A program made the translations under genes and the position numbers. 20,000 nt of DNA, from the IMG/VR virus record IMGVR_UViG_2675903165_000002, one strand, 5' to 3'. The stretch is from an uncultured virus (IMG/VR IMGVR_UViG_2675903165_000002). Taxonomy: Duplodnaviria; Heunggongvirae; Uroviricota; Caudoviricetes. The notes under the pieces were generated by a model, which did not search any database, was not told the DNA's origin, and worked only from the letters and a program-made list of their open reading frames with translations. Positions 4,170 to 20,000 of the stretch are shown in pieces. Each line of letters opens with the position of its first letter. Position 1 is the stretch's first letter.

Positions 4170-7100
4170 TGGAAAAGAAAATACTTCAAAATATATTATC
4201 GAAGCCCTTTGTGCTTTCCGACTGGCTGACTTTATTGACAGATGTTTTCGGTGTAAAAAACTTTCTTCAAAACCCTGCTGAAATCCCTTTACCAAGCAAC
4301 AACAAAGCCGAAGCTGCTTTTGAGTTGGGTAGTTTCAGTACGGCTGACGATAGAATTATTGGGTTGTATTTGGTAAAGGTAAAACCCGAAGTTTGGTTGG
4401 AGCGCAACAAAGTGGGTTTAAGGGAATTACTACGTTCTGTTTACAAAAATGAGGTGGACGGTGCTTTAATTGTATTCGAGCAAGCTGATAAATGGCGTTT
4501 GAGTTTTGTAAGCGAAATTCGTACTTTGGACGAGTATGGGCAAATTGTTGAAAACCAAACGCAACCCAAACGATACACCTATCTTTTAGGCAGTGGTCAA
4601 AAAGTAAAAACCCCCACCGACAGACTATGTGCCATTGCAGGTAAAAAAGCAAAACTTGAGGATATTAGAAGTTTATTTTCTGTTTCAACGCTCACCAAAG
4701 AGTTTTACAACGAACTCTTTAAATGGTACGAATGGGCATTGTCGGAGGAAATAGGTATTACCTTTCCTAAAAATACAAGTACCGCAGACGACGACCGCGA
4801 AAAGTTGGAAGAACAAATTATTCGCCTCATTACTCGTTTGCTTTTTGTATGGTTCATCAAACAAAAACAGTTAGTGCCACACAATTTATTCGACAAAGAA
4901 CAACTAAAATCCATACTAAAAGACTTTAATCCAAACGACAACAATAACGGGAGCTATTACAATGCTATCTTGCAAAACCTGTTTTTTGCCACACTCAATA
5001 AATCCGTTACTGAACGTGCTTTTGCCAAAGACGAAAATAACAGAGATGTAAAAACATTGTATCGCTATGCAGAAATGTTTGATATTGAAGAAGCGGAAGT
5101 TTTAAATCTATTCTGCAAAATTCCTTTTTTGAATGGCGGTTTATTTGAATGTTTGGACAAAGAAGCATCAACCGACGGCGTAAAATATCATTTAGACGGC
5201 TTTAGTCGAAACGATAGGAAAGTAAGAGGGCAATTCAGCCACCGTGCATACATTCCCAACTGCGTTTTCTTCGACGAAAACAAGGGCATTATTCCACTAT
5301 TGGAACGCTACAATTTTACCGTAGAAGAAAATGCGCCCGAAGATGTGCAAGTGGCTCTTGACCCCGAACTCTTGGGTAATGTATTTGAAAACCTTTTGGG
5401 TGCATACAACAGCGAAACCAAAGAATCTGCCCGTAAGCAAAGCGGAAGTTTTTACACACCCCGCGAGATTGTGGATTTTATGGTAAGCGAAAGTTTGCAG
5501 ACCTATTTGAACGAAAAAATTGGCGATGTTGATTTGAACGGACAACTGACCGATGAACAAAAAAAGAAAATTTACAATACCTTACTCAAAGTAAAAATCC
5601 TTGACCCAGCCTGCGGTTCTGGTGCTTTTCCAATGGGAATTTTGAACGGCATCATTGCCTTGCTCGAAAAAATTGGCGTGGCACAACACTTGGATATGTA
5701 CCAGCTAAAACTACACCTGATTGAAAACTGTATTTATGGTGTGGATTTACAAACCATAGCGGCACAAATAAGCAAATTGCGTTTCTTTATTTCGCTTATT
5801 GTGGAACAAGGGGAAATGGATTTGAGCAAAGAAAATTACGGTGTCATTACTTTACCTAACTTGGAAACCAAATTTGTAGCGGCAAACACCTTACTTGGGC
5901 TGCCTAAAAGGCAAGCTCAGATTGATTTGTTTGAAGACCCAGCCATAGAAACAACTAAACAGGAAATTTTTGCAGTGCGCCACGAACATTTTTACGCCAG
6001 AACAGCCAAAGAAAAGCGGCAACTACGCGATAAAGACGAAAAATTGCGTAAGAAGTTAGTGCAGTTGTTAGAAAACAACCATTCACTTAACCATGAAGAT
6101 GCAAAAAAAATAGCTGAATGGAATCCTTATGACCAAAACTCAAGTTCTGATTTTTTTGATGTAGAATGGATGTTTCTTTTAAAGGATGGCTTTGACATTG
6201 TAATTGGAAATCCACCTTATTTTTCACTATCAACAGATAGCATCTACTTAGATGATAAAACAGGGAAAAGGATAAAACACAACAGAATTTATGAACCTCA
6301 GGGCTTCAAAGTTTTTTCTAATTCTGGCGACATCTATTCTCTCTTTTATGAAAAAGGTTGGCAAGTGATAAAAGAAAAAGGCCACTTGTGTTTTATTACT
6401 TCCAACAAATGGATGCGGGCAGGCTATGGCGAAAGTACACGAAAGTTTTTTGCTGAAAATACCAACCCCGTATTACTGATTGATTTTGCAGGGCAAAAAA
6501 TATTTGAAAGTGCCACAGTTGATGTAAATATTTTACTGTTTAGCAAAAGTAAAAATCAACAAAAGACACTTGCTTGCATTGTTAAAGAAAAGGTGTTAAA
6601 TAATTTGAGCGTTTTTGTTAGACAACAAGGCTCAGAATGTGGTTTTTTAGGAAAAGAAAGCTGGACAATTCTTAGCCCAATTGAGCAAAGTATTAAACAA
6701 AAAATAGAAGCTGTTGGCACACCCCTCAAAGATTGGGATATAAATATTTATCGTGGAATTTTGACGGGCTACAACGAAGCATTTATAATTGACGGAAGCA
6801 CTAAAGACAAACTGGTAAAAGAAGACCCAAAATCTATCGAAATTATAAGACCGATTTTACGTGGGCGCGATATTAAGCGTTACGGCTATGAGTATGCAGA
6901 CCTTTACCTGATTGCTACTTTTCCAAGCCTTAAAATTGATATAGAACAGTATCCTGCCGTAAAAAAGCATCTGCTTTCGTTTGGAATGGAACGTTTAGAG
7001 CAAACAGGAAAAGAGTACAAAGTAAATGGCGAAACTATAAAAGCTCGCAAAAAAACCAACAATAAATGGTTTGAAACGCAAGATAGCATAAGTTATTGGG

Positions 7101-7507
7101 ACGATTTTAATAGGCAGAAAATCGTGTGGAAACGTGTTGGTTCAATTTTGCGATTTTCATACGATGAAGCGGGAACAATGGCTTTGGATAGTACTTGTTT
7201 TGCAACGGGAAAATATATCAAGTTTTTGGTTGGTGTTCTCAACTCTAAAATGGGACATTATTTGATGAAAGATGCGCCACAAACAGGAACAGGAGATTTA
7301 TTGATAAGCGTCCAAGCTATTGAGCCACTCAAGATTCCTATTCCTGATACAAATACAGAGCAGTCCATTAGTAAACTAATAGAAGAAATCTTGCATAATA
7401 AAAAACATGGATTAAGTTCGTATGAGTTAGAGCATAGACTTGATAATGTAGTATACGCTTTATATAACCTTGAAAAAACAGAGATTGATTTTGTTAATAT
7501 TCTGTAA
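4169..7507 (+). CDS. Type IIG/Eco57I-like N6-adenine DNA methyltransferase with TaqI-like C-terminal target recognition domain (currently expressed allele)
   Basis: FLNGGLF, LDPELLGNVFENLL, GSFYTPREIV, SAM-binding ILDPACGSGAF, catalytic IVIGNPPY, FITSNKW, C-terminal TRD-type segments (RGILTGYNEAF, ILRGRDIKRY, VLNS). Confidence 0.9.
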   Translation: MEKKILQNILSKPFVLSDWLTLLTDVFGVKNFLQNPAEIPLPSNNKAEAAFELGSFSTADDRIIGLYLVKVKPEVWLERNKVGLRELLRSVYKNEVDGALIVFEQADKWRLSFVSEIRTLDEYGQIVENQTQPKRYTYLLGSGQKVKTPTDRLCAIAGKKAKLEDIRSLFSVSTLTKEFYNELFKWYEWALSEEIGITFPKNTSTADDDREKLEEQIIRLITRLLFVWFIKQKQLVPHNLFDKEQLKSILKDFNPNDNNNGSYYNAILQNLFFATLNKSVTERAFAKDENNRDVKTLYRYAEMFDIEEAEVLNLFCKIPFLNGGLFECLDKEASTDGVKYHLDGFSRNDRKVRGQFSHRAYIPNCVFFDENKGIIPLLERYNFTVEENAPEDVQVALDPELLGNVFENLLGAYNSETKESARKQSGSFYTPREIVDFMVSESLQTYLNEKIGDVDLNGQLTDEQKKKIYNTLLKVKILDPACGSGAFPMGILNGIIALLEKIGVAQHLDMYQLKLHLIENCIYGVDLQTIAAQISKLRFFISLIVEQGEMDLSKENYGVITLPNLETKFVAANTLLGLPKRQAQIDLFEDPAIETTKQEIFAVRHEHFYARTAKEKRQLRDKDEKLRKKLVQLLENNHSLNHEDAKKIAEWNPYDQNSSSDFFDVEWMFLLKDGFDIVIGNPPYFSLSTDSIYLDDKTGKRIKHNRIYEPQGFKVFSNSGDIYSLFYEKGWQVIKEKGHLCFITSNKWMRAGYGESTRKFFAENTNPVLLIDFAGQKIFESATVDVNILLFSKSKNQQKTLACIVKEKVLNNLSVFVRQQGSECGFLGKESWTILSPIEQSIKQKIEAVGTPLKDWDINIYRGILTGYNEAFIIDGSTKDKLVKEDPKSIEIIRPILRGRDIKRYGYEYADLYLIATFPSLKIDIEQYPAVKKHLLSFGMERLEQTGKEYKVNGETIKARKKTNNKWFETQDSISYWDDFNRQKIVWKRVGSILRFSYDEAGTMALDSTCFATGKYIKFLVGVLNSKMGHYLMKDAPQTGTGDLLISVQAIEPLKIPIPDTNTEQSISKLIEEILHNKKHGLSSYELEHRLDNVVYALYNLEKTEIDFVNIL
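6607..6625 (+). repeat. Left 19-bp inverted repeat (putative invertase crossover site) inside the MTase coding sequence
   Basis: GAGCGTTTTTGTTAGACAA at 6607-6625 is the exact reverse complement of 9271-9289; flanking bases mismatch on both sides. Confidence 0.88.
6839..7122 (+). repeat. Left copy of perfect 284-bp inverted repeat in the middle of the TRD
   Basis: Base-by-base comparison shows 6839-7122 is the reverse complement of 8774-9057; encodes EIIRPILRGRDIKRY...WDDFNRQKI. Confidence 0.93.
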
Positions 7508-7742: not shown

Positions 7743-8604
7743 GAGTATGTTTAAAAATTAAGTATTGTGATTATCTAAAACGATTGAGTATAATTTGGAT
7801 ATTAGTCCACAAAATCCAGTTTTGGGAACTTTTCGCTGTTTTTTCATAATCTTTAGCAAGCCTACGAAAGAAATTATGCCAAGCAAAAGTTCTTTCCACT
7901 GCCCACCGCCACTTGACGGGAACAAATCCTTTCCTGCTGGGCGGTACAGCACTACACTCTACTGCTAAACCAAGTATATTAGCTTCTACCCATTGCATAA
8001 ATCCTTTTTTGTAGGCCGCATCCACCAGTATTTTTTGCATCCTATCTAAATAACCCAAACAGTGTTCTACCAGTAAATGAGCCTTTTGACTGTCATGGCT
8101 GTCTGCTCCATGAACAACCACCCCCCAAACTAAACCAAGCGTATCTACTATCACGTGTCTTTTTCGACCATTGATACACTTATTCCCATCAACACCTTTG
8201 TCTTTACTGACAAAAGGAGATACTTTTATAGATTGACTATCAATACTGAATAAACTCGGGATAGCCTTTTTCCCTTGCCGTTGGCGTTCGAGTTTATTCA
8301 GTTCGCTATTGATTCTTTCTAAGGTGCCATCTTTGCCCCATTTGGCAAAATAATAGTAAACCAATGGCCATGGGGGATAACAAGTTTCCAAATTACGCCA
8401 TTGCGTCCCTTTCCGAAGAATGCTCAAAATACCATTGACAACCGCACGCAAAGAATATTTGCGCTTTCTTTGCTGATTCAATATTTTACTGATAATTTCC
8501 CACGCGGTATCGGATAAATCTTTAAAACAGGTTTGCATTTTACTTTCATGTTTGGTCACTAAAAGTAAATTATCCGATACCCTTTTTTAAATTTAAACAT
8601 ACTC
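7743..8604 (-). mobile_element. IS5 family, IS1031-group insertion sequence (862 bp)
   Basis: 13-bp terminal inverted repeats GAGTATGTTTAAA (7743-7755) / TTTAAACATACTC (8592-8604), 3-bp TAA target duplication (7740-7742 and 8605-8607), single transposase ORF. GAG ends and TWA duplication match the IS1031 group. Confidence 0.92.
7771..8559 (-). CDS. IS5-family DDE transposase (start may be the ATG at 8538)
   Basis: DLSDTAW, GTQWRNL, VYYYFAKW, IDSQSIK, GRKRHVIVDTLG, LVDAAY, RWAVERTFAW, RRLAKDYE. Confidence 0.93.
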   Translation of the reverse strand: MTKHESKMQTCFKDLSDTAWEIISKILNQQRKRKYSLRAVVNGILSILRKGTQWRNLETCYPPWPLVYYYFAKWGKDGTLERINSELNKLERQRQGKKAIPSLFSIDSQSIKVSPFVSKDKGVDGNKCINGRKRHVIVDTLGLVWGVVVHGADSHDSQKAHLLVEHCLGYLDRMQKILVDAAYKKGFMQWVEANILGLAVECSAVPPSRKGFVPVKWRWAVERTFAWHNFFRRLAKDYEKTAKSSQNWILWTNIQIILNRFR

Positions 8605-8773
8605 TAAATACCCCAAAAGGGTAGAGTTTAAAAGTAACCAAAGATATTCTAAATCTTTACCAACTAAAAAATAGCAATCATTGCCAAAGAAAAAGTTCTT
8701 ATCGTTATCTAATGCAAAACGGGGGAAATTATTTTCGTTGCTTTTAGCAATTCTCATAATTCCTGGATAGATA

Positions 8774-9057
8774 ATTTTCTGCCTATTAAAATCGTCCCAA
8801 TAACTTATGCTATCTTGCGTTTCAAACCATTTATTGTTGGTTTTTTTGCGAGCTTTTATAGTTTCGCCATTTACTTTGTACTCTTTTCCTGTTTGCTCTA
8901 AACGTTCCATTCCAAACGAAAGCAGATGCTTTTTTACGGCAGGATACTGTTCTATATCAATTTTAAGGCTTGGAAAAGTAGCAATCAGGTAAAGGTCTGC
9001 ATACTCATAGCCGTAACGCTTAATATCGCGCCCACGTAAAATCGGTCTTATAATTTC
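8774..9057 (-). repeat. Right copy of perfect 284-bp inverted repeat (in silent TRD cassette)
   Basis: Reverse complement of 6839-7122; also explains the identical shadow ORFs 6904-7089 and 8807-8992. Confidence 0.93.
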
Positions 9058-9270
9058 TTCACTTTTGGGGTCTTGCGCAATGAGTTCTTTTCGCTTTGAG
9101 CCATCAATGATGAAAGCCTCATTAAAACCTGTTTTTATTCCATAATTGATTTGAATATCCCAGTCCTTTAACGGTGTTCCTATTCTCTCAATTTTTTCTT
9201 TTATGCGTTGTTCAATGTCAGAAAGAATAACCCAGCTATCGGCATTATTGAAACTACCCAGATTTCCTGC

Positions 9271-9289
9271 TTGTCTAACAAAAACGCTC
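9271..9289 (-). repeat. Right 19-bp inverted repeat (putative invertase crossover site) marking the start of the silent TRD cassette
   Basis: TTGTCTAACAAAAACGCTC; similarity to the MTase stops immediately outside it; lies about 100 bp upstream of the serine recombinase. Confidence 0.88.
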
Positions 9290-10160: not shown

Positions 10161-11399
10161 TTACAATCCTAACAACCTGTTACTCATTTCTTTTCGGGTA
10201 TCGTCCTCAAAACTGGCCAAATAGACTTCTGTGATGGTGGTATTGGTATGTCCCAAACTTTCACTAATGTATTCTATGCTTGCCCCTGACCGCTTCAATA
10301 CTGTTGAGAAACTATGCCGCGCCGTGTAGGTAGTAATATGCTTACTGATACCTAATTCTTGCCCAACCTGCTTCATAAATCTATTGATGGTGGAGACGAT
10401 ATTGTGGGTTTTAACTGCCCTCTTCAATGGTGATTGTTGGTCATTATAAAAAGGAAAAATATAAGTATTGGGTAAGCAGGGTTTCTGTCCCCAACGGGCA
10501 ATAATATCTTGGGCAATGGCTGGCAAATGAGCCTGAATTAAGCGTGGGTTGCTACGGAGCTTATTAGCTGTTTTTTGTCTCATAAAGGTTAGCCTATCGC
10601 CATCTATATTGCTATATTTGAGGTTGCATATATCTTTTACGTTTATCCCATTGCACAGATAAGAAAAGACCCACAAGTCTCGGGCTAAAGCCTCTTTTCC
10701 TTGTGGGTCTTGTGGGGTGTAATGTATAATTTTCATAATATCAGCGAAGGGCAAGGCTTTTTTGATATTGACGGATGTTAAGGGTTGGTATTTTTTTCTT
10801 CCAAAGGGGTAGAAATCTTTTGAAACAATACCGTCTGCCATGGCAGCATTAAAGACGGTACGAATAGAGGTTGTATAAAATCCAATAGACCCCGCTTTGA
10901 GTCCTTTTATGAGTAGAGCCTCTTCGTATTTTTTCAAGAAGGCGGGAGTGATGTCCTCAAAATATAGATTTGTGCCAGCGTATTGCCGCAGGGAGTTGAG
11001 AGCGCAAGCAAATCCCCATGCAGATTTAATACGGCCTTCAGCAAATAGATTATCAATAAAAGATTGGAAGTAGTTTATGACCTTACGCGATACGACAGCA
11101 TTGTTACTTTTTCCATTGTATAGTTCCGTGAATCGCCTAAAAGTAAATACTCCCATAGACTTAAGTATGAGTTGTGCTTTATGCTCTATGGCCGTTATTT
11201 TAATTTTGAGCTCTTTAAGTTGTCCGCCGCGCACGGAGGTGGTTTTGAGCTTGTCCCAATCAGCTACTGAAACATATTCTGCAATGCTGATATATTGTCT
11301 TTCTTTTCGATAAGTAATGCGTAATTTAAGAGGGAAAGTTCCATCGACTTTTTGCCTTCTTCTGTCGATAACGACGGCAATTGTTGCAGTGTTTTCCAT
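10161..11399 (-). CDS. Tyrosine site-specific integrase (N-terminal arm-binding domain, SAM-like core-binding domain, catalytic domain)
   Basis: N-terminal DGTFPLKLRITY..ERQYI arm-domain pattern; catalytic region FSYLCNGINVKDI, FMRQKT, TYTARHSFST, ISESLGHT, TEVYL. No IntI-type insertion recognised. Confidence 0.9.
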   Translation of the reverse strand: MENTATIAVVIDRRRQKVDGTFPLKLRITYRKERQYISIAEYVSVADWDKLKTTSVRGGQLKELKIKITAIEHKAQLILKSMGVFTFRRFTELYNGKSNNAVVSRKVINYFQSFIDNLFAEGRIKSAWGFACALNSLRQYAGTNLYFEDITPAFLKKYEEALLIKGLKAGSIGFYTTSIRTVFNAAMADGIVSKDFYPFGRKKYQPLTSVNIKKALPFADIMKIIHYTPQDPQGKEALARDLWVFSYLCNGINVKDICNLKYSNIDGDRLTFMRQKTANKLRSNPRLIQAHLPAIAQDIIARWGQKPCLPNTYIFPFYNDQQSPLKRAVKTHNIVSTINRFMKQVGQELGISKHITTYTARHSFSTVLKRSGASIEYISESLGHTNTTITEVYLASFEDDTRKEMSNRLLGL

Positions 11400-11439
11400 G
11401 ATATTTACGATAAAATGTAAGATTTGTGTAATGCGTAAA

Positions 11440-11890
11440 TATACAAATAGTACAATAAAATATCAAAGAAAAACGGAATAATTATTATAATAAATAGCTA
11501 TAAATCAGATGATTAGTAAATTTGTGCAAACAATGAAAAAATAAGTAAAATTACATTTTGCCCAAATGGGTGATTGCTCTAAAAATGTATAAATAAATCT
11601 AAATAAGCATGTGTACGGAGAGTATTTAAAACTGCTCAGTATAAAGCTTTGTTAGACACGAGTAATATGATATTTTGAGTAAAAACTTTTCTTTGACGTA
11701 AAAAATCGTATTACTTTTGATACACTATTTGATACATGGTGTAGTAAAATAGCGCAAAAAAGTAATAATGTAGAGGAAAGAAAAATTCGTTATTGCATTG
11801 TAAATCAATGTATTATGATAGTATTGTAAAATAGCGAAAATATAACTATCCCTTCTTAAAAATAAAATATAAAAATATTTGCAAATATTC
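11440..11890. promoter_or_regulatory. AT-rich putative att/recombination-control region with IHF-consensus sites and short direct repeats
   Basis: WATCAR-N4-TTR matches at 11503-11515 and 11803-11815; TTTGATACA at 11716 and 11728; GTAAAATAGCG at 11744 and 11826; perfect palindrome AATATTTGCAAATATT at 11874-11889. Confidence 0.4.
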
Positions 11891-12003
11891 TATCTGTTTA
11901 AGATTTTGCGTGAGAATGGCAGGCAAGGTGCTTGCAGAATGGAAAAGATAAACGCAATAAGGTGTGTTTATACAAATGTTGTGCATAATTAAACGAAACA
12001 GAA

Positions 12004-12741
12004 ATGTCAGATAACAAAGAAAATAAAGCTAACTGGAAGCCCACAGATAAAAGATTTGTAGCATTTTTAGATATATTGGGTTTTAAAGACTTGGTTATGA
12101 GAAATACCCATGATGAAATATATCAAATATTAAATCAAATATCAAAAAGCAAAAAATTAATAGAAGAAGCCACAAAGTTTGAAGAAATTTCAAAGGTATT
12201 TGGTGATGTTGAAGTTTATGTAGTAAGCTTTTCAGATTCTATTGTAATCTTTTCAAAAAACGATAGTATTGAAAATTTCAAATATTTTCTATTAGCGACT
12301 AGGTGGTTTTTTACAGGTGCATTTAATAAACAAATACCTATAAAAGGAGCAATGGCACACGGTGAAATTAGTTTGAATAAGAAGGAACAGATTTATTTTG
12401 GGCAACCAATAATTGATGCTTATTTAATGGAAGAAGATGTGAATTATATGGGCATTGTCGCTCATAATAGTATTGACAATTATATTTCAAAAATTGAAGA
12501 AGAATCAGTTCTAAAGAGTATTGAGAGATTGTTGTTTGAAGAAAAAACTCCACTAAAATGTGGTAGCTTGACTCATACAAATCTCAATTGGTTCAAGATA
12601 ATTAAGAAAACCGATGAAGAGTTTAATATTCAGTATTTAAAATCTAAGATTAATTTATTCAAAAAAACGACATCTGGTACTGCAAGAAAATATATTGATA
12701 ATACTTTTAATATCTTAGAAAAAATAGAGGGTAGTTTATAA
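12004..12741 (+). CDS. Class III nucleotide cyclase-like protein (cassette 1)
   Basis: FVAFLDILGFK (first Asp), SFSDSIVI (second Asp), IKGAMAHGEI, YFGQPIIDAYLME follow the adenylate/guanylate cyclase motif order; product unknown. Confidence 0.6.
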   Translation: MSDNKENKANWKPTDKRFVAFLDILGFKDLVMRNTHDEIYQILNQISKSKKLIEEATKFEEISKVFGDVEVYVVSFSDSIVIFSKNDSIENFKYFLLATRWFFTGAFNKQIPIKGAMAHGEISLNKKEQIYFGQPIIDAYLMEEDVNYMGIVAHNSIDNYISKIEEESVLKSIERLLFEEKTPLKCGSLTHTNLNWFKIIKKTDEEFNIQYLKSKINLFKKTTSGTARKYIDNTFNILEKIEGSL

Positions 12742-12742
12742 A

Positions 12743-12869
12743 TTAACTATGCACAACACACAATATAGCCAATAAGGGTTTCAGTGGTATGCGAAGGTTT
12801 GTAGCCCCCTTCAATTTTTCGTGTACCATGATAGGAAATCGCCCGCAATCCCTTACTGGCCAGTTAGCA
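12743..12869. repeat. attC-like site 1 (shortened right arm)
   Basis: TTAACTATGCACAAC (12743-12757) complements the cassette 1 start GTTGTGCATAATTAA (11978-11992); inner stem GCCAATAAGGG (12768-12778) / CCCTTACTGGC (12850-12860); next GTT at 12863. Confidence 0.75.
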
Positions 12870-12895
12870 GCAAGCTTAAAAAAACAAAGCAATCT

Positions 12896-13786
12896 ATGAG
12901 AATTTTTATTAGTTGGTCAGGAGACGTAAGTAAGCAAATAGGAGAAGCCATTAAAGATTGGCTACCCGCTGTGTTACAAAATGTCAAACCCTATTTTACT
13001 CCAAATGATATTGAAAAAGGAGCACGCTGGAATGCAGATATTTCAAAAGAATTAGAGCATTGTAAGTTAGGAATATTTATATATACAAAGGATAATATTG
13101 ACAGCCAATGGATGTTGTTTGAAGCAGGTGCAATTAGTAAAATGTTGGACAATTCAAAAGTTTGTCCCATTTTGTTTGGGCTAGACAATGCTGATTTTAA
13201 AGGACCACTTACACAATTTCAAACGTCACAATTTCAAAAGACAGATTTTAGAAAATTAGTTTACTCAATCAATAATAGTCTTTCTGAACAAAAACTAGAG
13301 GAAAAAGTATTAGATGAAGTTTTTGAAATGTGGTGGCCAAAACTTGAAAATAAGGTTAATAAACTTTTAGATGCTAATAAGGTAGAAAACATTGCTGTTA
13401 GAAATGACCGAGAACTTCTTGAAGAAATACTTGCGATTTCTAGAATTACAGCAAAACGTACAATAGAAACAGGTAAGTCAAACTCAAAAAGAAGATATAA
13501 TACAGAAGTTTATGAAAAACTTGTGTCGAGCTTTATTTTTGGAACAGAAACTATTTTTGAAATAGATTGGGAACATACCAAGTCTTGTTTAGAAGGTGAT
13601 AATCTTCAATACTTCGTTGCACAAAATGGGGACTTTTTAAATCCTAATGTAAATGATGAAGGAAATAACTGGGCTAATAGGGTTGGGTTTTTAGAATCTT
13701 ATCGAAAACTTAAGTCATTCATCGAAGAATATGGATTAAGAAAAAGAGATTCATATTTTGACCCTGAAAACGAACCTCCATTTTAA
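12896..13786 (+). CDS. TIR-domain protein (cassette 2), 296 aa
   Basis: MRIFISWSG...WLPAVLQ...DIEKGARW...WMLFEAGAISK with the conserved TIR Glu. Start placed at ATG 12896, inside the cassette, rather than 12821, which lies in the attC-like site. Confidence 0.85.
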   Translation: MRIFISWSGDVSKQIGEAIKDWLPAVLQNVKPYFTPNDIEKGARWNADISKELEHCKLGIFIYTKDNIDSQWMLFEAGAISKMLDNSKVCPILFGLDNADFKGPLTQFQTSQFQKTDFRKLVYSINNSLSEQKLEEKVLDEVFEMWWPKLENKVNKLLDANKVENIAVRNDRELLEEILAISRITAKRTIETGKSNSKRRYNTEVYEKLVSSFIFGTETIFEIDWEHTKSCLEGDNLQYFVAQNGDFLNPNVNDEGNNWANRVGFLESYRKLKSFIEEYGLRKRDSYFDPENEPPF

Positions 13787-13789
13787 TTA

Positions 13790-13931
13790 AAGCCTGCTGC
13801 TAACATGGGTATTTGCAATAGTGCGGCTTGAAGTTAAATGATCAACTTAGGTAATTTTATGTAACTTTAGTGCAAAACTCGGCTGACGGAATACTATTAC
13901 CGCACCATCGCAAATACCTAATCCGTTGCCT
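13790..13931. repeat. attC-like site 2
   Basis: AAGCCTGCTGCTAAC (13790-13804) complements the cassette 2 start GTTAGCAGCAAGCTT (12863-12877); inner stem GGTATTTGCAATAGTGCGG (13808-13826) / CCGCACCATCGCAAATACC (13900-13918), 17/19; next GTT at 13925. Confidence 0.82.
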
Positions 13932-13975
13932 GTAATTGTATACAGACTTCACTATAAACTGAATCACATAAAGTA

Positions 13976-14524
13976 ATGGACAAAATAATCAGCACAGAAC
14001 CTAATTGGATAATTACAACCTTAATTGGAACTGTTATTGGTTATTTATACCCTTACTTTATTAAAGGAATTATTTACATTGGCAGACTTCTCTTTACTAA
14101 ACATTATTTAACTGGACAATGGAATAGCTACTACCAAATTTGGGAGAATAATTTAGCAGTAATCAAACACGAAAAATGGACTGTATCATTAGGATACAAT
14201 AGCAAACTTAAAGTGAAAATAAAAACTGTAGCAGAAGGTAATTTGAATTATTCTGGAGAACTTACAGAAGAAAGGGGACATTTGATTGTAACATTAAAAG
14301 CTAAAGAATATGATGAGAGAGTATTTGGACGATACCCAATTCCAATTCCAAGTAATGACGCAACTGTTGTAGGACTTTGGTTGGGAGTTGATTTTAATGC
14401 ACACGCAACTGTTGGAGCAAACATACTTTCGAGAATAGAGCTTGACAATGAAAAAATAATAATTCTGTTAAGAGAATACACAGAAGTTGATACTGAAAAT
14501 GAAATGATAAGGCTAAAGCACTAA
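13976..14524 (+). CDS. Hypothetical membrane protein: N-terminal TM segment plus beta-rich domain (cassette 3)
   Basis: Hydrophobic WIITTLIGTVIGYLYPYFIKGIIYI, then LTGQWNSY (GxW) and alternating beta-strand patterns ending GLWLGVDF...ILSR. Confidence 0.7.
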   Translation: MDKIISTEPNWIITTLIGTVIGYLYPYFIKGIIYIGRLLFTKHYLTGQWNSYYQIWENNLAVIKHEKWTVSLGYNSKLKVKIKTVAEGNLNYSGELTEERGHLIVTLKAKEYDERVFGRYPIPIPSNDATVVGLWLGVDFNAHATVGANILSRIELDNEKIIILLREYTEVDTENEMIRLKH

Positions 14525-14544
14525 TTCAAGAAACATTTGACAAA

Positions 14545-14688
14545 ACAACTACAGGCAACATTGGGTTTGCTGCAATTTGGGCTTGACGTTGTAAGCATCA
14601 ACTTTTGTAATTCTATTGGGCATTTGTGCAAATGTTGGGCTGACGTTTTTCAAATACCCCACCATTGCCAATATGTGGATTGTTAGTT
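14545..14688. repeat. attC-like site 3
   Basis: ACAACTACAGGCAAC (14545-14559) complements the cassette 3 start GTTGCCTGTAATTGT (13925-13939); centre homologous to site 2 (GCTTGA.GTT...ATCAACTT..GTAATT.TAT...GTGCAAA...GGCTGACG); inner stem degenerate; next GTT at 14682. Confidence 0.75.
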
Positions 14689-14744
14689 GCAAGCATTGTG
14701 GGACAATTTTAACATAAAACTATTTAGAAGAAATAAACATTAGT

Positions 14745-15998
14745 ATGAGTAACCTTGACTTTTCAAAAATTGCTTCAAAAGTTTTGACTCAACAACTTGA
14801 GACACAAATCAAGGAATACAAAGTATTTTACAAGACGCATTTGCGAAATGTAAAAGACCGACAATTAGTTTTATCACAACTCGACAACCTTTGTATAAGG
14901 TTTCAAAAAATATCACAAAAAATAGATTTTCTTTCCGACCCAGAAAGATATAAACTTGAAGAAGAAACTGAAAAACTTTTAAAGAAGTATTTCAATAACG
15001 ATATTTTTGAACTTTATAACAAAAAAATACCAACCCCTGAAGCGAAGCGAAAAATCCCTAATCCTGAAAATAAATTTTGGCTTACAGTTCTTGACTCAGT
15101 TTATCAAGCTGTTGAAGTCACAGCAGAACAGGTAAAACAAGAATTGGTTTATAAGACAGACTTTGTTACTTTTCTAAATAACTGTTTACTGTATTTTGGT
15201 TTACATCCAAATATTTTAAAGAGAGATAATACTATTTATAAACGCTATAATTGTGTTTTAGAACATCACTTTAAATCACCAAAGATAAAGCAGACAGAGT
15301 CTAAAATTTTATTAAAGAAGGAAATCTTGCAAGCTGAATTTCTAACTCCATATGAAAAGAAATTGCCAATTAGAATAAATGGGAAACTAATTCCATTCGA
15401 GGACATTTATCAAATCAAAATCACTTCAACTATTTTACAAGATGACGAGATAGAACTGTTTGCTGCTAAAAATAAATTTACATGGACTGACAATTCTAAA
15501 GACTATGTTGCTTTCATAAATAATTGCCATGACGAAACCGAACAACTACATAATAATCCATATTTGATTGGCCAAGACAAAGAGAGATTTAGAAATCATA
15601 ATACTTTCTTTGTTCATCCAACAAGAATTTTGGAATTACAAAAGATAAAAAACAATAAGTTCGACCTAATAAAACTTATTCAACTATGTGAAGAATTAAA
15701 TAATGCTTCTTCATCAAAAAATCCATTTAGTTTAACTTTTCTAGCGAGAGCAATTATTGACCACACTCCACCGATATTTGGGTTCAGTAATTTTTCAGAA
15801 GTAGCAAATAATTATTCAGGTGGGACAAGAAGTTTTAAGAAATCAATGCAAAACTTAGACAATTCATTGCGTAATATTGCAGACAACAACATACATTCAC
15901 AAGTAAGAAAAAAAGAAGTCTTGCCAACCACAACTCAAGTTGATTTTACGCAAGAGCTTGACCTGCTTCTGAGTGAAATCGTGAGAATTTTAGAGTAA
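14745..15998 (+). CDS. Hypothetical protein with C-terminal helical HEPN/Abi-like domain (cassette 4)
   Basis: 417-aa ORF; C-terminal FDLIKLIQLCEELN...LARAIIDHTPPIFG...LRNIADNNIH has an R...H motif spaced longer than canonical HEPN Rx4-6H, so the domain call is tentative. Confidence 0.55.
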   Translation: MSNLDFSKIASKVLTQQLETQIKEYKVFYKTHLRNVKDRQLVLSQLDNLCIRFQKISQKIDFLSDPERYKLEEETEKLLKKYFNNDIFELYNKKIPTPEAKRKIPNPENKFWLTVLDSVYQAVEVTAEQVKQELVYKTDFVTFLNNCLLYFGLHPNILKRDNTIYKRYNCVLEHHFKSPKIKQTESKILLKKEILQAEFLTPYEKKLPIRINGKLIPFEDIYQIKITSTILQDDEIELFAAKNKFTWTDNSKDYVAFINNCHDETEQLHNNPYLIGQDKERFRNHNTFFVHPTRILELQKIKNNKFDLIKLIQLCEELNNASSSKNPFSLTFLARAIIDHTPPIFGFSNFSEVANNYSGGTRSFKKSMQNLDNSLRNIADNNIHSQVRKKEVLPTTTQVDFTQELDLLLSEIVRILE

Positions 15999-16021
15999 AC
16001 AACAACTTCGGACGAACGGTA

Positions 16022-16100
16022 GCACAGCCATCAACACACTTTTAGCATCAGGAAGGGTAACGTGCAAACTTGAGGTTCTGTACCTTCAATTTTCTACCTG
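16022..16100. repeat. Truncated/degenerate attC-like site 4 (left half only)
   Basis: GCACAGCCATCAAC (16022-16035) sits in the expected position after the stop, but only 6/11 bases complement the cassette 4 start GTTAGTTGCAA, and no right arm was found. Confidence 0.4.
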
Positions 16101-16130
16101 AATGCAAAGCCCGAAATCTTTTTGAAACCC

Positions 16131-16160
16131 GCCACCAACTTACCCAGTTGGTGGCTTTTT
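16131..16160 (+). terminator. Intrinsic terminator closing the cassette array
   Basis: Perfect 9-bp stem GCCACCAAC / GTTGGTGGC, 7-nt loop, TTTTT tail. Confidence 0.78.
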
Positions 16161-16162
16161 CT

Positions 16163-16198
16163 TGTCCTTTTGAGTGAATCAATCCACCGATAGATTGC
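16163..16198 (+). promoter_or_regulatory. TGTCCTTT-N20-TAGATTGC motif, putative promoter of the tape measure gene (copy 2)
   Basis: Ends 20 nt before the ATG at 16219; matches copy 1 at 10123-10157. Confidence 0.45.
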
Positions 16199-16218
16199 GC
16201 CATAAACTTTAATAGTTC

Positions 16219-19200
16219 ATGGCCTCTACCACTCAAGCACAATCACAGATTACCGTTATCACTGATGCCAAACAAAGCATCAATGAGTTAGGACGGCTGC
16301 AACTCAAAGCCGCCGATTTTGCCAAAGAAATCAAAGACTCCAAAAAGAGCTTTGATGAGTTCAATCGCTCCAGTACAGCCCTTTCCCGCATGGGCGAAGG
16401 CATCAAACGCCTTAGCATAGAAGCCGCTCAATTCAAGCAGGCAATGACCGCCAACAAAACGGCTGCCGAGCAATTCAGCAAGTCCACTGCTGATTTGGGC
16501 AAAGTAAACACCGAGCTAAAAAACCTCAAAAGCCAAGCCGCCGAACTCCGTACCGCCATCAAAGGTATGAAAGAAGGCACGGAGGAATACGCACGCGAAA
16601 ACGACAAGCTCACGGCCATCAAAACCAAAATAGAGTCCCTGAAGACTTCGGCCACGGCACTCAAAGCCCAAATGCTTGAGTCGAAAAATGCGGCCAAAGA
16701 CTTTGATAAAGCCAATGCAGGATTAGACAAAACGAATGCCACTTTAACCAAACTCACGGCCAAAGCCGATGACTTGGCAGCCGCTACGCTTCGAGCCAAA
16801 GCCGAAGCCGACAAATACAGTGCCGCCAAAGAAGGCTTTAAAGCCGTCAATGCTGAAATAGACAAGGAGCGCGAAAAATTGGGCGTGCTGGGCATGACCA
16901 TGAACCAAATGCTCAAGTACCAGAAGGATTTGAACGCGGCCATCAATACAGGAGCAGTCTATGGAACAGAACGCTACCAACAACTAAACACGAAACTTGT
17001 AGAGGTTAATGGCGCGATTCAGCAGCAGAAAAATGACCAAAAACGCTTGCAACAGGAAACAGGTCTTACTGTTGGTTCATTGCGAGAACTGGAAGAACAA
17101 GAAAAGCGATTAAACGCTGAGATTAAGAATTTAGGCATCAATACGAAAGAATTTGCGGCCAAAGCCCGCGAGCTTCGCACCGTAGAAAGCCAAATCAGTT
17201 CGGCAGAAAATAAACTCAAAGGTTTTGCGGGTTCGTGGGCAAACATGAAAAACAGCATCATGAATGTGGCGGGTGGTGTTATTGGTGGTACGCTGGCCTT
17301 GTCTGCTTTTCAGAAGTTGGCCGAGTTTATCCCCAACCTCATTTCTTCACAAGCCAAACTCTCGGACAGTTTCGCCGACATTCGCAAAACTACGAACATG
17401 AGCATTGAGGGCGTGAAGGAGTATAACAAACAACTTTCCCAACTCAATACCCGCACGGCCACCGAAGAGCTACGCAAAATTTCCATTATCGCAGGTCAGT
17501 TGGGCATAGACCAAACAAAGGTGTTTGATTTTACGGCTGCCGTTGATAAAATGGTCGTGGCTCTTGGTGATGAATTTACAGGCGGTGCGGAACAAATCAC
17601 CAAAGAAATGGGTGCGTTGCGCAACATCTTTTCCGACATCAAAACAGATAAAATTGATGAGGATATGTTACGCATCGGCAACGCCATCAATCAATTGGGT
17701 AGCGAAGGCGCAGCGACAGGGCCAGTAATGGCGGACTTCGCTTCGCGTATCGGTGGCGTTGGGGTTCAATTAGGATTGAGTTCTGGGCAAATATTGGGGC
17801 TTTCGGCCACCCTTCAGGAGTTGAACGTAAACGCCGAGCGTGGCGGTACGGCCATCGTTAAAATTTTACAACGCATGGCCTCGACACCAGAGGAGTTTGC
17901 CAAAGTTGCCCAAATGTCCGCCAAGTCCTTTACCGAACTCGTGGACAATGACATTTACGGAGCTTTGACCAGAGTCATTGAAAAGGCCAATGAATCAGGG
18001 GCAAGTGCTACGGTTTTAGCTTCTATCCTCAAAGAACTGGACGTGGACGGAGCAGGCGCAAGTGAGGTGTTTGCCAAACTTGGCGGAAATATGGATACGT
18101 TGGCCAAGAAAGTGGCCAGTTCCAACAGCGCGTTGAAAAGTACCGATTCCATCATGAACGAGTTTGGCATCAAAAACGAAAACTTTGCAGCCAAACTCGA
18201 AAAGTTGAGCAAGGCCATCAGCAAAATGTTCACGTTCCCAACGCTCAATAAAGCCATTGAAGATACCGTCGGTTGGCTGTATAAGTTACTGCCCGCCACC
18301 GAAAAATTTAGTGCTTCTCTCGAAAAAGAAGCCTACAATTTGGATAGTGCAACCATTGGCATCATGAGCCTCAAGGTAGGCACGGAAGAGCGCACCAGAG
18401 CCATCAAGGAATTGCAAGACAAATACCCCGACTATTTGGGTAATCTCAACGCCGAAACCGTCTCTAATGCCGAGCTGAAAAAATCCATTGACAACGTAAC
18501 CAATTCGCTCATTGAGCAAATTATTATCAAAAAGGCAATGGAAAAAGTGGACGAGCAAGCCAACAAAGCAGCAGAAGCCTACGCCAATTTGATGGAAAAA
18601 CGCAGAGTGGTACAAGACCGTCTCAATGATTATTTCAATCAAGAAAAAGGCAATACCGAAAAACACAATCAGTTACAATCTATTAAAAATCAGCTCATGG
18701 CTTCGGGAATGAGCTTGGAAAAACAATACGAGTTCATTCAGAGCGGACGTGTAAAAGAATTGCCGCGTTGGGGCGATGCTTATCATGAATTGGCTGGTTC
18801 TGTCATGTATTTGCGAATAGCCGAACAAGACTACAACAAGGAAGCAGAAAAAACACTTCAGTTTGAAAAAGAACGAACTGAAGTATATAAATCACTTGGC
18901 CGTAATGCCAATGGTGAAACCCCCGCCGAGATTGCCGCCCGCAAAAAAGCGGAAGAAGATGCCAAAAGGAAAGAAGAGGAGGACAAGTTAAAAGCCGCAG
19001 CCGCCCGTAAAAAAGCCCGTGAGGAGGCCGAGAAAAAAGAGCGTGATGACAACGCCAAAAAGAACAAGGCCGAAGCCGAAAAACGCGCCAAAGAAGCGTT
19101 GGAGGCAGAGCGTAAAATCATTGATTTACGTCTTAACCTGCTCAAAGATGAGCGCGAGCGCAAACGAGCCATTGCCACAGAGGAAAATCGCCGAGAAATC

Positions 19201-20000
19201 CAAGACTTTAAAATGTCAGCAGAAGACAAAGCCAAGCTATCTAAAACCGAGCGAGCCAAACGTAATGCGCAAGAGACAGCATTTGAAAAGCTATCTAAAC
19301 GAAAACTTGATGAAGAGCTGCACCAAATAGACACCGAGTATTACGAGAAAGCCCGCGAAGCCTACGAGAAGTTGCAAAAGGAAAAAGTAGAAGCCGCCAA
19401 GAAAGCCAAGCAACAGGAGTTGGACGATGCGACGGCCTTTGCAGAATTGCAAGTGCTTGTAACGCAAAAGGATACCGATGTGATGGGCTTTGAGGTGCAG
19501 AAAAGCGAAGGCATTATCCGAGAGCTAAAACGCCGAAAATACGCCGAGCTTGAAAACACCGAACTCACACAGGAGCAACGCCTTGCCATTACACAACGCT
19601 ATGACAAACAAATCAATGCGGTAGAAGTGGCAGGCCGTGCCACCAACGTAGAGGCACAAATCGGGCTACTCAATATCCAAATGCAAAAAGAGTTGGCCAA
19701 AGAGGAGCTGACTGAGAATGAAAAATATAACATTCAGGCCAAGTACATCGACAAAATCAACCAACTTCTTGACGAGCAGGAAAAACAGGAACAGGAGAAT
19801 ATTAAAAACAAGGTCATTGGTTTTGTAGATGCCTTCAAAACCATCATGGAAGGCATTAATGAACTCAATGCCATTGAAATTGATAATCAGTTCATTGAGC
19901 TTGATAAACTCAAGCAATACCAAGACCAGCAATACGAGAACAACAAGCAGCGATTAGGCAACCAGCTTGCGCAAGAAGAGGCCGCCAAAAATGCCCGTTT
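16219..20000 (+). CDS. Phage tail tape measure protein (TP901-like core), >1260 aa, runs off the window
   Basis: My translation from ATG 16219: MASTTQAQSQITVITDAKQSINELGRLQ..., coiled-coil N-terminus, core LSDSFADIRKTTNM...LNTRTATEELRKISIIAGQLGI...FTAAVDKMVVALGDEF, K/E/A-rich later part. Absent from the ORF track, consistent with no stop inside the window; many antisense shadow ORFs. Confidence 0.9.
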   Translation, partial: MASTTQAQSQITVITDAKQSINELGRLQLKAADFAKEIKDSKKSFDEFNRSSTALSRMGEGIKRLSIEAAQFKQAMTANKTAAEQFSKSTADLGKVNTELKNLKSQAAELRTAIKGMKEGTEEYARENDKLTAIKTKIESLKTSATALKAQMLESKNAAKDFDKANAGLDKTNATLTKLTAKADDLAAATLRAKAEADKYSAAKEGFKAVNAEIDKEREKLGVLGMTMNQMLKYQKDLNAAINTGAVYGTERYQQLNTKLVEVNGAIQQQKNDQKRLQQETGLTVGSLRELEEQEKRLNAEIKNLGINTKEFAAKARELRTVESQISSAENKLKGFAGSWANMKNSIMNVAGGVIGGTLALSAFQKLAEFIPNLISSQAKLSDSFADIRKTTNMSIEGVKEYNKQLSQLNTRTATEELRKISIIAGQLGIDQTKVFDFTAAVDKMVVALGDEFTGGAEQITKEMGALRNIFSDIKTDKIDEDMLRIGNAINQLGSEGAATGPVMADFASRIGGVGVQLGLSSGQILGLSATLQELNVNAERGGTAIVKILQRMASTPEEFAKVAQMSAKSFTELVDNDIYGALTRVIEKANESGASATVLASILKELDVDGAGASEVFAKLGGNMDTLAKKVASSNSALKSTDSIMNEFGIKNENFAAKLEKLSKAISKMFTFPTLNKAIEDTVGWLYKLLPATEKFSASLEKEAYNLDSATIGIMSLKVGTEERTRAIKELQDKYPDYLGNLNAETVSNAELKKSIDNVTNSLIEQIIIKKAMEKVDEQANKAAEAYANLMEKRRVVQDRLNDYFNQEKGNTEKHNQLQSIKNQLMASGMSLEKQYEFIQSGRVKELPRWGDAYHELAGSVMYLRIAEQDYNKEAEKTLQFEKERTEVYKSLGRNANGETPAEIAARKKAEEDAKRKEEEDKLKAAAARKKAREEAEKKERDDNAKKNKAEAEKRAKEALEAERKIIDLRLNLLKDERERKRAIATEENRREIQDFKMSAEDKAKLSKTERAKRNAQETAFEKLSKRKLDEELHQIDTEYYEKAREAYEKLQKEKVEAAKKAKQQELDDATAFAELQVLVTQKDTDVMGFEVQKSEGIIRELKRRKYAELENTELTQEQRLAITQRYDKQINAVEVAGRATNVEAQIGLLNIQMQKELAKEELTENEKYNIQAKYIDKINQLLDEQEKQEQENIKNKVIGFVDAFKTIMEGINELNAIEIDNQFIELDKLKQYQDQQYENNKQRLGNQLAQEEAAKNAR

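What the first reader, a model, noticed from the sequence alone, without database searches (positions are those of the whole stretch)
11978..14559. Conserved position-11 mismatch and bottom-strand folding bias in the cassette sites
Seen: in all three intact cassettes the single mismatch between start and end lies at position 11, always A at the start versus C at the end (GTTGTGCATAa, GTTAGCAGCAa, GTTGCCTGTAa). All four starts fit GTTR-N4-YAA. Inner-stem mismatches in sites 1 and 2 are also A/C on the top strand, which become G-T wobbles on the bottom strand. Inference: the sites are recognised as folded single-stranded bottom strands, as for attC, but with a different sequence code and no obvious extrahelical bases.
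Basis: partly seen in the sequence, partly recalled or inferred. Interest (0 to 1): 0.7.

Follow-up and report, generated by a model that had tools for sequence, protein, structure and literature searches.

The report
Wobble-marked integron-like cassette sites, Bacteroidota
The fixed mismatch at the ends of these small swappable genes is a real, family-wide mark of an integron-like gene-capture system of Bacteroidota: paired G-T wobbles seem to replace the bulged bases that classical integron sites use, and the family's recombinase lacks the segment that reads those bulges.

Summary
Confirmed and extended. Each of three cassettes has ends complementary over 15 bases, with one A/C mismatch at position 11. 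In related arrays, a detector blind to positions 10-15 found start A11 in 122 of 123 cassettes and A opposite C in 115. Inner stems carry a matching A/C 15-16 bases after AAC in 159 of 167 sites. Both become G-T on the bottom strand. Classical IntI cassettes show this in 1 and 0 of 57 and have bulges instead. Arrays follow a co-oriented tyrosine recombinase lacking the IntI insertion, usually with an N-terminal HARP-like domain. This genome lacks that enzyme; its array starts at an attI-like site and only site 2 is intact: an orphan, decaying array. Corrections: a bottom-strand G:T bias is already published for classical attC, and an extra T sits beside the wobble in about a fifth of cassettes. 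Single-strand recombination and wobble read-out are inferred, not shown. Ten open-access searches found no description; this scan noted the same wobbles and recombinase before on other DNA.

The parts
11854..11935 (+). Promoter-like module repeated about 20 times in this genome, several copies ahead of attI-like GTT junctions (promoter role inferred)
   Evidence: blastn of the upstream region against G000; contig pieces
11948..11980 (+). attI-like site in front of cassette 1
   Evidence: Matrix from 31 recombinase-proximal first junctions scores it 7.5, within the leave-one-out range (-12.9 to 17.7); 55 of 71,506 GTTR sites of the genome score as high; the other three starts score -10 to -17
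11978..11992 (+). Cassette 1 start box; A at position 11 (11988)
12004..12741 (+). Cassette 1 gene, 245 aa, no Pfam/NCBIfam/PADLOC hit; feature look-alikes are named putative guanylate-cyclase-domain proteins (lead only)
12743..12757 (+). Cassette 1 end box, complementary to 11978-11992 except C at 12747
12758..12862 (+). Site 1 hairpin, 105 nt; A/C at 12772/12856; right arm shortened by about 11 bases next to the crossover
   Evidence: metagenome contigs continue 11 bases further before GTT
12863..12877 (+). Cassette 2 start box; A at 12873
12896..13786 (+). Cassette 2 gene, TIR-domain protein (TIR_2 over cut-off; PADLOC TIR-TM model E 5e-75 over residues 1-208)
13790..13804 (+). Cassette 2 end box; C at 13794
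13805..13924 (+). Site 2 hairpin, 120 nt, the only intact site; A/C at 13817/13909 and 13820/13906; homologous to sites on Empedobacter and Riemerella plasmids
13925..13939 (+). Cassette 3 start box; A at 13935
13976..14524 (+). Cassette 3 gene, 182 aa, no family hit
14545..14559 (+). Cassette 3 end box; C at 14549
14560..14681 (+). Site 3, 122 nt, chimeric: left arm nearest to ~180-nt sites, right arm nearest to other classes; arms pair poorly, conserved G next to the crossover lost
14682..14696 (+). Cassette 4 start box; A at 14692; no matching end
14745..15998 (+). Gene 4, 417 aa, no family hit
16025..16121 (+). Decayed fourth site: end box of another cassette, 83-nt hairpin of a known 118-nt class, TTT in place of GTT
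10161..11399 (-). Neighbouring tyrosine integrase of the arm-binding (ICE/prophage) type; probably not the cassette recombinase
   Evidence: Arm-DNA-bind_5 + SAM_5 + Phage_integrase; TIGR02249 52 bits against cut-off 265; 49.9 bits to the family profile

Best explanation
The stretch is an orphan, partly decayed array of an integron-like system of Bacteroidota. A cassette is TT-start box, gene, end box-AAC, hairpin, G, as in classical integrons (shown by shuffled copies). In the excised circle the bottom strand folds into two helical arms around an unpaired spacer: an outer arm (the cassette's own 15-bp ends) and an inner arm. Each arm carries a G-T wobble at a fixed place, 11 bases out and 15-16 bases in, about symmetric around a 6-7-base overlap, often with an unpaired T beside it (shown as sequence pattern). 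On the top strand these are A-C mismatches, so the bottom strand folds better and presents the mark (computed). A co-oriented tyrosine recombinase without the IntI insertion, usually with one to three HARP-like N-terminal domains, inserts circles at an attI-like site just behind its own gene by cutting the folded bottom strand within the GTT core, probably G|TT (inferred). The wobbles probably take the strand-selecting role of the classical extrahelical G (inferred, about 0.6); that the HARP-like domain reads them is a guess (about 0.3).
For: Position 11 A/C in 150 of 153 cassettes with a downstream hairpin, among 93 different position 4-10 words and 56 different 12-15 words; with a detector blind to 10-15, 115 of 123 from 37 loci. 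Inner A/C at left 14-17 in 159 of 167 sites, 76 of 83 site families. Same local motifs in both arms, including the bulged-T form TCA/TTCG (9 outer, 12 inner). Bottom strand lower in 150 of 162 circle forms, median -4.4 kcal/mol (selected for A/C at 11), and in 76 of 107 inner hairpins oriented by the recombinase alone. Compensatory GTA/TAC at position 3 in two loci. Polarity follows the array, not the gene: catB and ere(D) genes lie inverted in their cassettes. Twelve pairs of shared cassettes change upstream neighbour at GTT and keep the downstream hairpin, including reordered copies inside one complete chromosome; cassette 1 itself occurs in a biofilm metagenome (one study) with another next cassette. 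34 of 60 recombinase loci have A/C cassettes downstream, 88 of 94 downstream hits in that polarity and none reversed. The recombinase's best solved relative is VchIntIA, with query 285-297 spanning IntIA 188-243, the segment that holds the bulge-binding residues K209, Y210, W219, P232, H240, H241 (PMC3053210, passages). Classical A bulge at left 16/17 maps onto the wobble A at 15/16 once the classical C9 bulge is removed.
Against: No recombination assay exists here. The window's genome has no such recombinase, so the link rests on other genomes. 54 of 167 inner stems have a top-strand wobble at left 6-7; 31 of 107 recombinase-oriented inner hairpins do not favour the bottom strand and the median gap is only -1.2 kcal/mol. 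In the array form the outer arm pairs poorly (3.4 of 7 at positions 4-10), so how excision sees the outer wobble is unclear. 5 of 17 recombinases without a HARP-like domain also precede A/C cassettes, and 15 of 49 with one show none (8 of these with under 3 kb of contig left). HARP support is modest: Pfam cut-off passed in 1 of 7 proteins, Foldseek E 0.05, Z 4.6-6.2. One phage site next to such a cassette was recombined by IntI1, with changed outer bases (PMC9892861 section 3.4).
Confidence: 0.72

Rival explanations
1. Same integron-like system, but the A and C are read as sequence by the recombinase (two slightly different binding arms); the wobble geometry and the folding bias are by-products.
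For: A at start position 11 is more constant (122 of 123) than the in-register opposition (93 of 123 without a bulge) and is kept in array form where its neighbours do not pair (159 of 164 next starts); 3 cassettes keep the A with a bulged T and no wobble.
Against: The partner is nearly always the one base that makes a wobble on the bottom strand; it shifts by one when a T is inserted (21 cases); the same motif recurs in the inner arm with opposite arm identity, as a dyad predicts.
Confidence: 0.14
2. Ordinary integron cassettes (a CALIN) moved by classical IntI; the wobble is part of the known bottom-strand G:T skew.
For: Same core, register and cassette geometry as attC; classical sites have 1.24 against 0.39 G:T pairs (PMC5027507); classical IntI is over cut-off in 67 of 201 genomes of the phylum sample; P12002L_attC2 was recombined by IntI1, bottom strand only.
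Against: Beside classical IntI, position 11 is A/C in 1 of 57 and pairs in 39, 12-15 fall to background, bulges are present in 42 and 48 of 57. In the 14 families of the window's own order and class (f13, f22-f34) classical IntI is in 1 of 49 genomes and the insertion-less family in 30 of 49. P12002L_attC1, which lies between cassette-type ends, failed with IntI1.
Confidence: 0.07
3. The hairpins act as RNA (terminators, stabilisers or antisense RNA) and the wobbles are G-U pairs.
For: The sites lie just after stop codons; RNA folding also favours the bottom strand for sites 1 and 2.
Against: The favoured strand is antisense to the largest ORF in 168 of 183 cassettes; polarity stays with the array where genes are inverted; the outer stem closes only across a whole gene or in a circle; breakpoints fall at GTT; no Rfam match.
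Confidence: 0.03
4. Double-stranded recombination at cassette ends by the neighbouring arm-binding integrase (10161-11399) or host XerCD.
For: The integrase is divergent and 580 bases from the array, like intI; XerCD can use folded single-stranded phage DNA without bulges (PMC4792948 discussion).
Against: It is an ICE/prophage-type enzyme with two close paralogues elsewhere in the genome; related arrays are preceded by the other family; end sequences vary freely while staying complementary.
Confidence: 0.04

Closest known systems
Classical integrons: IntI, attI, attC recombined as folded bottom strands (VCR/VchIntIA, PDB 2A3V; PMC2727003, PMC5027507)
   Same: AAC/GTT core, cassette = start box-gene-end box-hairpin, own ends complementary for about 10 bases, G next to the bottom-strand AAC (99% of 171 sites), TT at left 7-8, asymmetric unpaired spacer, long variable terminal structure, bottom-strand folding bias, first cassette at a recombinase-proximal site, enzyme nearest to IntI in sequence and fold.
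   Different: No extrahelical G; the distal T is opposed by G; a second fixed wobble in the outer arm followed by four more pairs; recombinase lacks the ~43-residue insertion, is co-oriented upstream of attI and mostly bears HARP-like domains.
CALINs, including phage CALINs (PMC4889954; PMC9892861)
   Same: Cassette array without its recombinase nearby; Polaribacter phage P12002L of the latter paper carries cassette ends of this A/C type (5 of 8 detector hits).
   Different: [quoted passage not shown]
'Integron-like' subgroup of tyrosine recombinases, with IS91/IS3-associated members lacking the insertion (bioRxiv 10.1101/542381)
   Same: SAM_4 plus catalytic domain, no IntI insertion; IS91-linked relatives are among the plasmid hits.
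   Different: The passages read report no cassette arrays or HARP domains for them.
CTX phage integration by XerCD (PMC4792948, discussion)
   Same: Folded single-stranded site without bulges, enzyme without I2.
   Different: Host enzymes and one fixed site there; here a dedicated enzyme and at least 83 site families.
SMARCAL1 HARP / UvsW N-terminal / XPB N-terminal domains
   Same: Best Foldseek hit for the recombinase's N-terminal domain is 4O66 (prob 0.97, E 0.05); VIA Z 6.2 UvsW, 5.9 XPB, 4.6 HARP at rmsd 1.9; Pfam HARP over cut-off in the Spirosoma protein.
   Different: Fused to a recombinase, not a helicase; scores are in the range of common folds; kinship to the MutS mismatch-recognition domain is recalled, not retrieved.

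Membership tests
Classical attC site | AAC ... GTT cores in inverted repeat with own-end complementarity | tested here: met
Classical attC site | R and L arms separated by an unpaired central spacer, variable terminal structure | tested here: met
   spacers mostly 1-3 left and 5-7 right; lengths cluster at 115-120 and 178-185; intact only at site 2 in the window
Classical attC site | Extrahelical G (strand selector) and T on the R''-L'' arm | tested here: not met
   C bulge 0 of 167, A bulge 1 of 167, against 42 and 48 of 57 classical sites
Classical attC site | Crossover at G|TT of the downstream core; hairpin travels with the upstream gene | tested here: inconclusive
   hairpin travels with the upstream cassette and breakpoints fall at GTT; position 3 travels with the cassette; the exact bond cannot be fixed
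Classical attC site | Recombined as folded bottom strand | not testable with these tools
   only folding energies and mismatch counts
Integron integrase (IntI) | IntI-specific insertion (I2 region) | tested here: not met
   12 residues span IntIA 188-243; TIGR02249 236.5 bits, below 265, in two stretches
Integron integrase (IntI) | SAM_4 + tyrosine-recombinase catalytic domain, close to IntI | tested here: met
   7 of 7; catalytic motifs invariant; outside the IntI group but on its side of the Xer branch in a quick tree
Complete integron (this window) | Cognate recombinase gene beside attI | tested here: not met
   none in G000, 99.8% complete, 48 contigs
Complete integron (this window) | attI and cassette promoter | tested here: inconclusive
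   attI-like score in the top 0.08%; promoter not tested
CALIN | Cluster of attC sites as called by IntegronFinder/HattCI, no integrase near | not testable with these tools
   those models are not available; works like a CALIN of non-classical sites
HARP domain | PF07443 or fold match | tested here: inconclusive
   over cut-off in 1 of 7; profile hit to 4O66 E 0.079; fold hits modest
Structured RNA family (Rfam) | Match to a covariance model | tested here: not met
   0 matches at E up to 5 in 11400-16400

The most novel reading that the evidence does not exclude
A second, phylum-wide lineage of integrons recombines single-stranded cassette sites with no extrahelical G and no I2 insertion: dyad-symmetric G-T wobbles, read by a mismatch-sensing HARP-like domain fused to the recombinase, select the strand. 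It would be a working intermediate or a parallel solution to the published I2/bulge chicken-and-egg problem, and the unrecognised capture system behind Bacteroidota-derived resistance genes such as tet(X) variants and blaVEB.
Probability: 0.33. Interest if true: 0.92.

Novelty: new variant of a known kind. Interest (0 to 1): 0.76.

Why it matters
The I2 insertion and the extrahelical bases are treated as the defining, co-evolved pair of integron recombination, and their origin is stated as an open paradox (PMC4792948). Here both are missing together while arrays, shuffling and attI-like sites remain, in a recombinase family found in 70 of 201 sampled genomes of the phylum. The fixed wobbles give two single positions to mutate in an existing assay, so the question becomes directly testable. 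They also give a simple search rule for cassettes that tools built on intI_Cterm and bulged attC models probably overlook (not run here). tet(X2), catB, lnu(H), ere(D) and a blaOXA gene lie in such cassettes on Empedobacter and Riemerella plasmids, and tet(X3) and blaVEB-3 lie right behind truncated members of the family on Acinetobacter and Klebsiella plasmids.

Tried and rejected
Rfam: nothing. Repeat finder: did not report the cassette ends. Strict site scan of the own genome: only site 2. Site 2 DNA against 41 relatives: one 23-base hit only. Site 2 pattern in viral contigs: 0. One search was an uninformative pattern. A loose core-to-core pattern gave counts no higher than its reversed control. 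A class 1 integron control yielded only 6 rows, some false, and was not used (six regions fetched, five analysed); the control rests on 57 cassettes from 14 of 20 classical IntI loci of the same phylum. A class-wide IntI search around G244 found 1 of 201 and was not used as a control. The idea that GTA at first junctions places the crossover after position 3 was rejected: both ends carry it. No recombinase remnant upstream of 11978 (best E 0.014). The first detector required 12-15 in register and so missed bulged cassettes; its counts (183 of 200, 150 of 153) are biased upward and are superseded. About 17 non-A/C hits among the 200 match the detector's background of 16 per Mb but were not checked one by one. 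DNA 1999 and 2004 parameters gave identical energies and count as one. The careful tree did not finish; the quick tree is midpoint-rooted and gives no order of events. No joints in the laid contigs; contigs drop rare forms. No tRNA in the window. The blaVEB 'Re1' repeats were not compared with these sites.
Full report
1. Observation. In 1000 dinucleotide shuffles of the region none gave two such pairs. Inner A/C mismatches are real in sites 1 and 2. Circle forms fold better on the bottom strand by 2.5, 3.6 and 0.9 kcal/mol as DNA; as RNA site 3 reverses. As they lie in the array, only the site 2 bottom strand stands out from shuffles (z -2.0).

2. The window array is a relic. Site 2 is intact. 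Site 1 lacks about 11 bases of its right arm: contigs of two biofilm metagenome runs (one study) hold cassette 1 from 11947 to 12862 at about 98% identity, continue 11 bases further to GTT and then enter a different cassette (nearest homologue agrees). Site 3 joins arms of different classes, and a fourth site at 16025-16121 is decayed. The first start has no hairpin before it and scores as an attI-like site (top 0.08% of 71,506 GTTR sites). The genome (99.8% complete) has no cognate recombinase or remnant; the divergent integrase at 10161-11399 is an arm-binding type. The host is probably a member of Bacteroidota (inferred from named relatives of the sites).

3. The mismatch is family-wide. 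Site 2 led to Empedobacter and Riemerella plasmids and to 31 genome loci, mostly Bacteroidota. Pooling these with recombinase-linked loci gave 200 distinct end pairs, 183 with A/C at 11, and 150 of 153 among those with a downstream hairpin, across 93 different position 4-10 words. That detector required 12-15 in register. A detector blind to 10-15 gave 123 cassettes from 37 loci: start A11 in 122; A opposite C in 115, of which 70 plain, 21 with an A/A mismatch at 10, 22 with one extra base (21 T) on the end arm, 2 with 12-15 unpaired; 3 more have the extra T and no wobble. Inner stems have A (left 15 or 16 after AAC) opposite C in 159 of 167 sites and 76 of 83 site families; about 65 have a second one three bases earlier; 133 of 167 have no bulge. 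Mismatches that become wobbles on the bottom strand outnumber those on the top 272 to 87, but 54 of the latter are a regular feature at left 6-7. The two wobbles are about symmetric around a 6-7-base overlap (inference from distances), and the same local motifs occur in both arms, including TCA against TTCG. Bottom strands fold lower in 150 of 162 circle forms (set chosen for A/C at 11) and in 76 of 107 inner hairpins oriented only by the recombinase.

4. Control. In 57 cassettes from 14 of 20 loci beside classical IntI of the same phylum, position 11 is A/C once and paired 39 times, 12-15 fall to background, the C bulge is present in 42 and the A bulge in 48, and no A/C pair occurs at 14-17. 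The classical A bulge at left 16/17 coincides with the wobble A at 15/16 if the C9 bulge is removed, so the distal T looks homologous and the strand-selecting G is what is missing. Bouvier et al. assign strand choice to that G (PMC2727003, introduction read whole). Nivina et al. report a general bottom-strand G:T excess and a 2.12 kcal/mol bias in classical sites (PMC5027507, passages): the bias is known, the fixed positions are not mentioned in those passages.

5. Geometry and mobility. Twelve pairs of shared cassettes change their upstream neighbour at GTT and keep the downstream hairpin; three cassettes recur in different order within one complete chromosome. Position 3 covaries (GTA/TAC) in two loci, so the crossover lies before it, compatible with G|TT. 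The largest ORF is on the top strand in 168 of 183 cassettes; catB and ere(D) are inverted while polarity follows the array, which argues against an mRNA structure.

6. The recombinase. Arrays in five genomes begin just behind a co-oriented tyrosine recombinase. A profile of seven such proteins matched 70 of 201 genomes of the phylum (87 matches). Of the best 60 loci, 34 have A/C cassettes downstream; 88 of 94 downstream hits have that polarity, none the reverse; 6 hits lie in the shorter upstream flank; many empty loci end at a contig break. Its closest solved relative is VchIntIA, but 12 residues span IntIA 188-243, where the bulge-binding residues lie (PMC3053210, passages). A HARP-like domain precedes the core in 49 of 66 loci; support for the fold is consistent but modest, and 5 of 17 enzymes without it also precede cassettes. 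In a quick tree the family lies outside IntI but apart from Xer. In the families of the window's own order and class it is in 30 of 49 genomes, classical IntI in 1 of 49.

7. Mechanism. Shown: the sequence rules, the loss of bulges together with the bulge-binding segment, shuffling at GTT. Computed: bottom-strand advantage. Inferred: single-strand recombination, strand choice by the wobbles, read-out by the HARP-like domain. Open: in the array form the outer arm pairs at only 3.4 of 7 positions, so the outer wobble may matter mainly for integration of circles.

8. Literature. Ten searches of the open-access library listed no paper on this system; subscription journals and bioRxiv supplements were not visible, so prior description is not excluded. 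Cury et al. judged insertion-less recombinases near attC not to be IntI (PMC4889954, passages). Smyshlyaev et al. list insertion-less IS91-linked relatives (10.1101/542381, passages). Qi et al. called a CALIN in phage P12002L; one site failed and one recombined with IntI1, bottom strand only (PMC9892861, passages, section 3.4 and supplement rows); that phage has A/C cassette ends, mostly with genes on the opposite strand. Escudero et al. state the I2/bulge paradox (PMC4792948, discussion part 1). PMC8618304 and PMC9427477 were seen as passages only. Earlier notes of this scan describe the same wobbles and recombinase on other DNA; they are unchecked leads, and my position-11 and HARP results preceded reading those on wobbles and HARP.

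9. Verdict. Observation confirmed; interpretation mostly right but unproven and in need of three corrections. It works like attC; it fails the bulge and I2 tests for classical membership. New variant of a known kind; interest 0.76.

Noticed in passing
window 11854-11935; G000 C15, C27, C28, C38, C7: About 20 copies of a 50-80-base AT-rich module, probably a promoter; at least seven are followed by an attI-like junction and a gene, with no recombinase in the genome: dispersed landing sites or relics.
   Followed up: partly
G000 C15:83158-88147, C15:262204-263087, C28:297737-298717: Further orphan cassettes of the same A/C type in this genome.
   Followed up: partly
L191/L192 4043-6089; L193 6133-7754: tet(X3) on Acinetobacter plasmids and pHH1107, and blaVEB-3 on a Klebsiella plasmid, sit directly behind a truncated recombinase of this family (annotated TnpF or tyrosine recombinase) and an attI-like GTT junction.
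   Followed up: partly
L003, L004, L009, L030: tet(X2), catB, lnu(H), ere(D) and a blaOXA gene are cassettes of this type; the 1208-base tet(X) cassette has three different upstream neighbours.
   Followed up: partly
L032, L048, L049 (Niabella ginsengisoli contig): Array of about 50 kb whose recombinase has an internal stop; G041 has three arrays and two intact recombinases with shared cassettes reordered.
   Followed up: partly
L220 (phage P12002L) 29237-40764: A/C cassette ends with genes on the opposite strand and short hairpins, beyond the two sites tested in PMC9892861.
   Followed up: partly
The insertion-less family and classical IntI split by class within the phylum sample; some genomes of other classes hold both.
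   Followed up: no
window 12004-13786: A cyclase-like gene next to a TIR gene suggests defence cargo, but they are separate cassettes and cassette 1 has other neighbours elsewhere.
   Followed up: no
window 6607-7122 and 8593-9289: A 301-base, 98% inverted duplication of part of the type II restriction-modification gene, flanking an IS5-family transposase at 7771-8559.
   Followed up: no
window 16211-20000: Long GC-richer open frame resembling a tape-measure protein by eye, running to the contig end; the array lies between it and the ICE-type integrase.
   Followed up: no
site set: Hairpin lengths cluster sharply at 117-119 and 178-185 bases across distant genera, with different spacer splits per class.
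   Followed up: no
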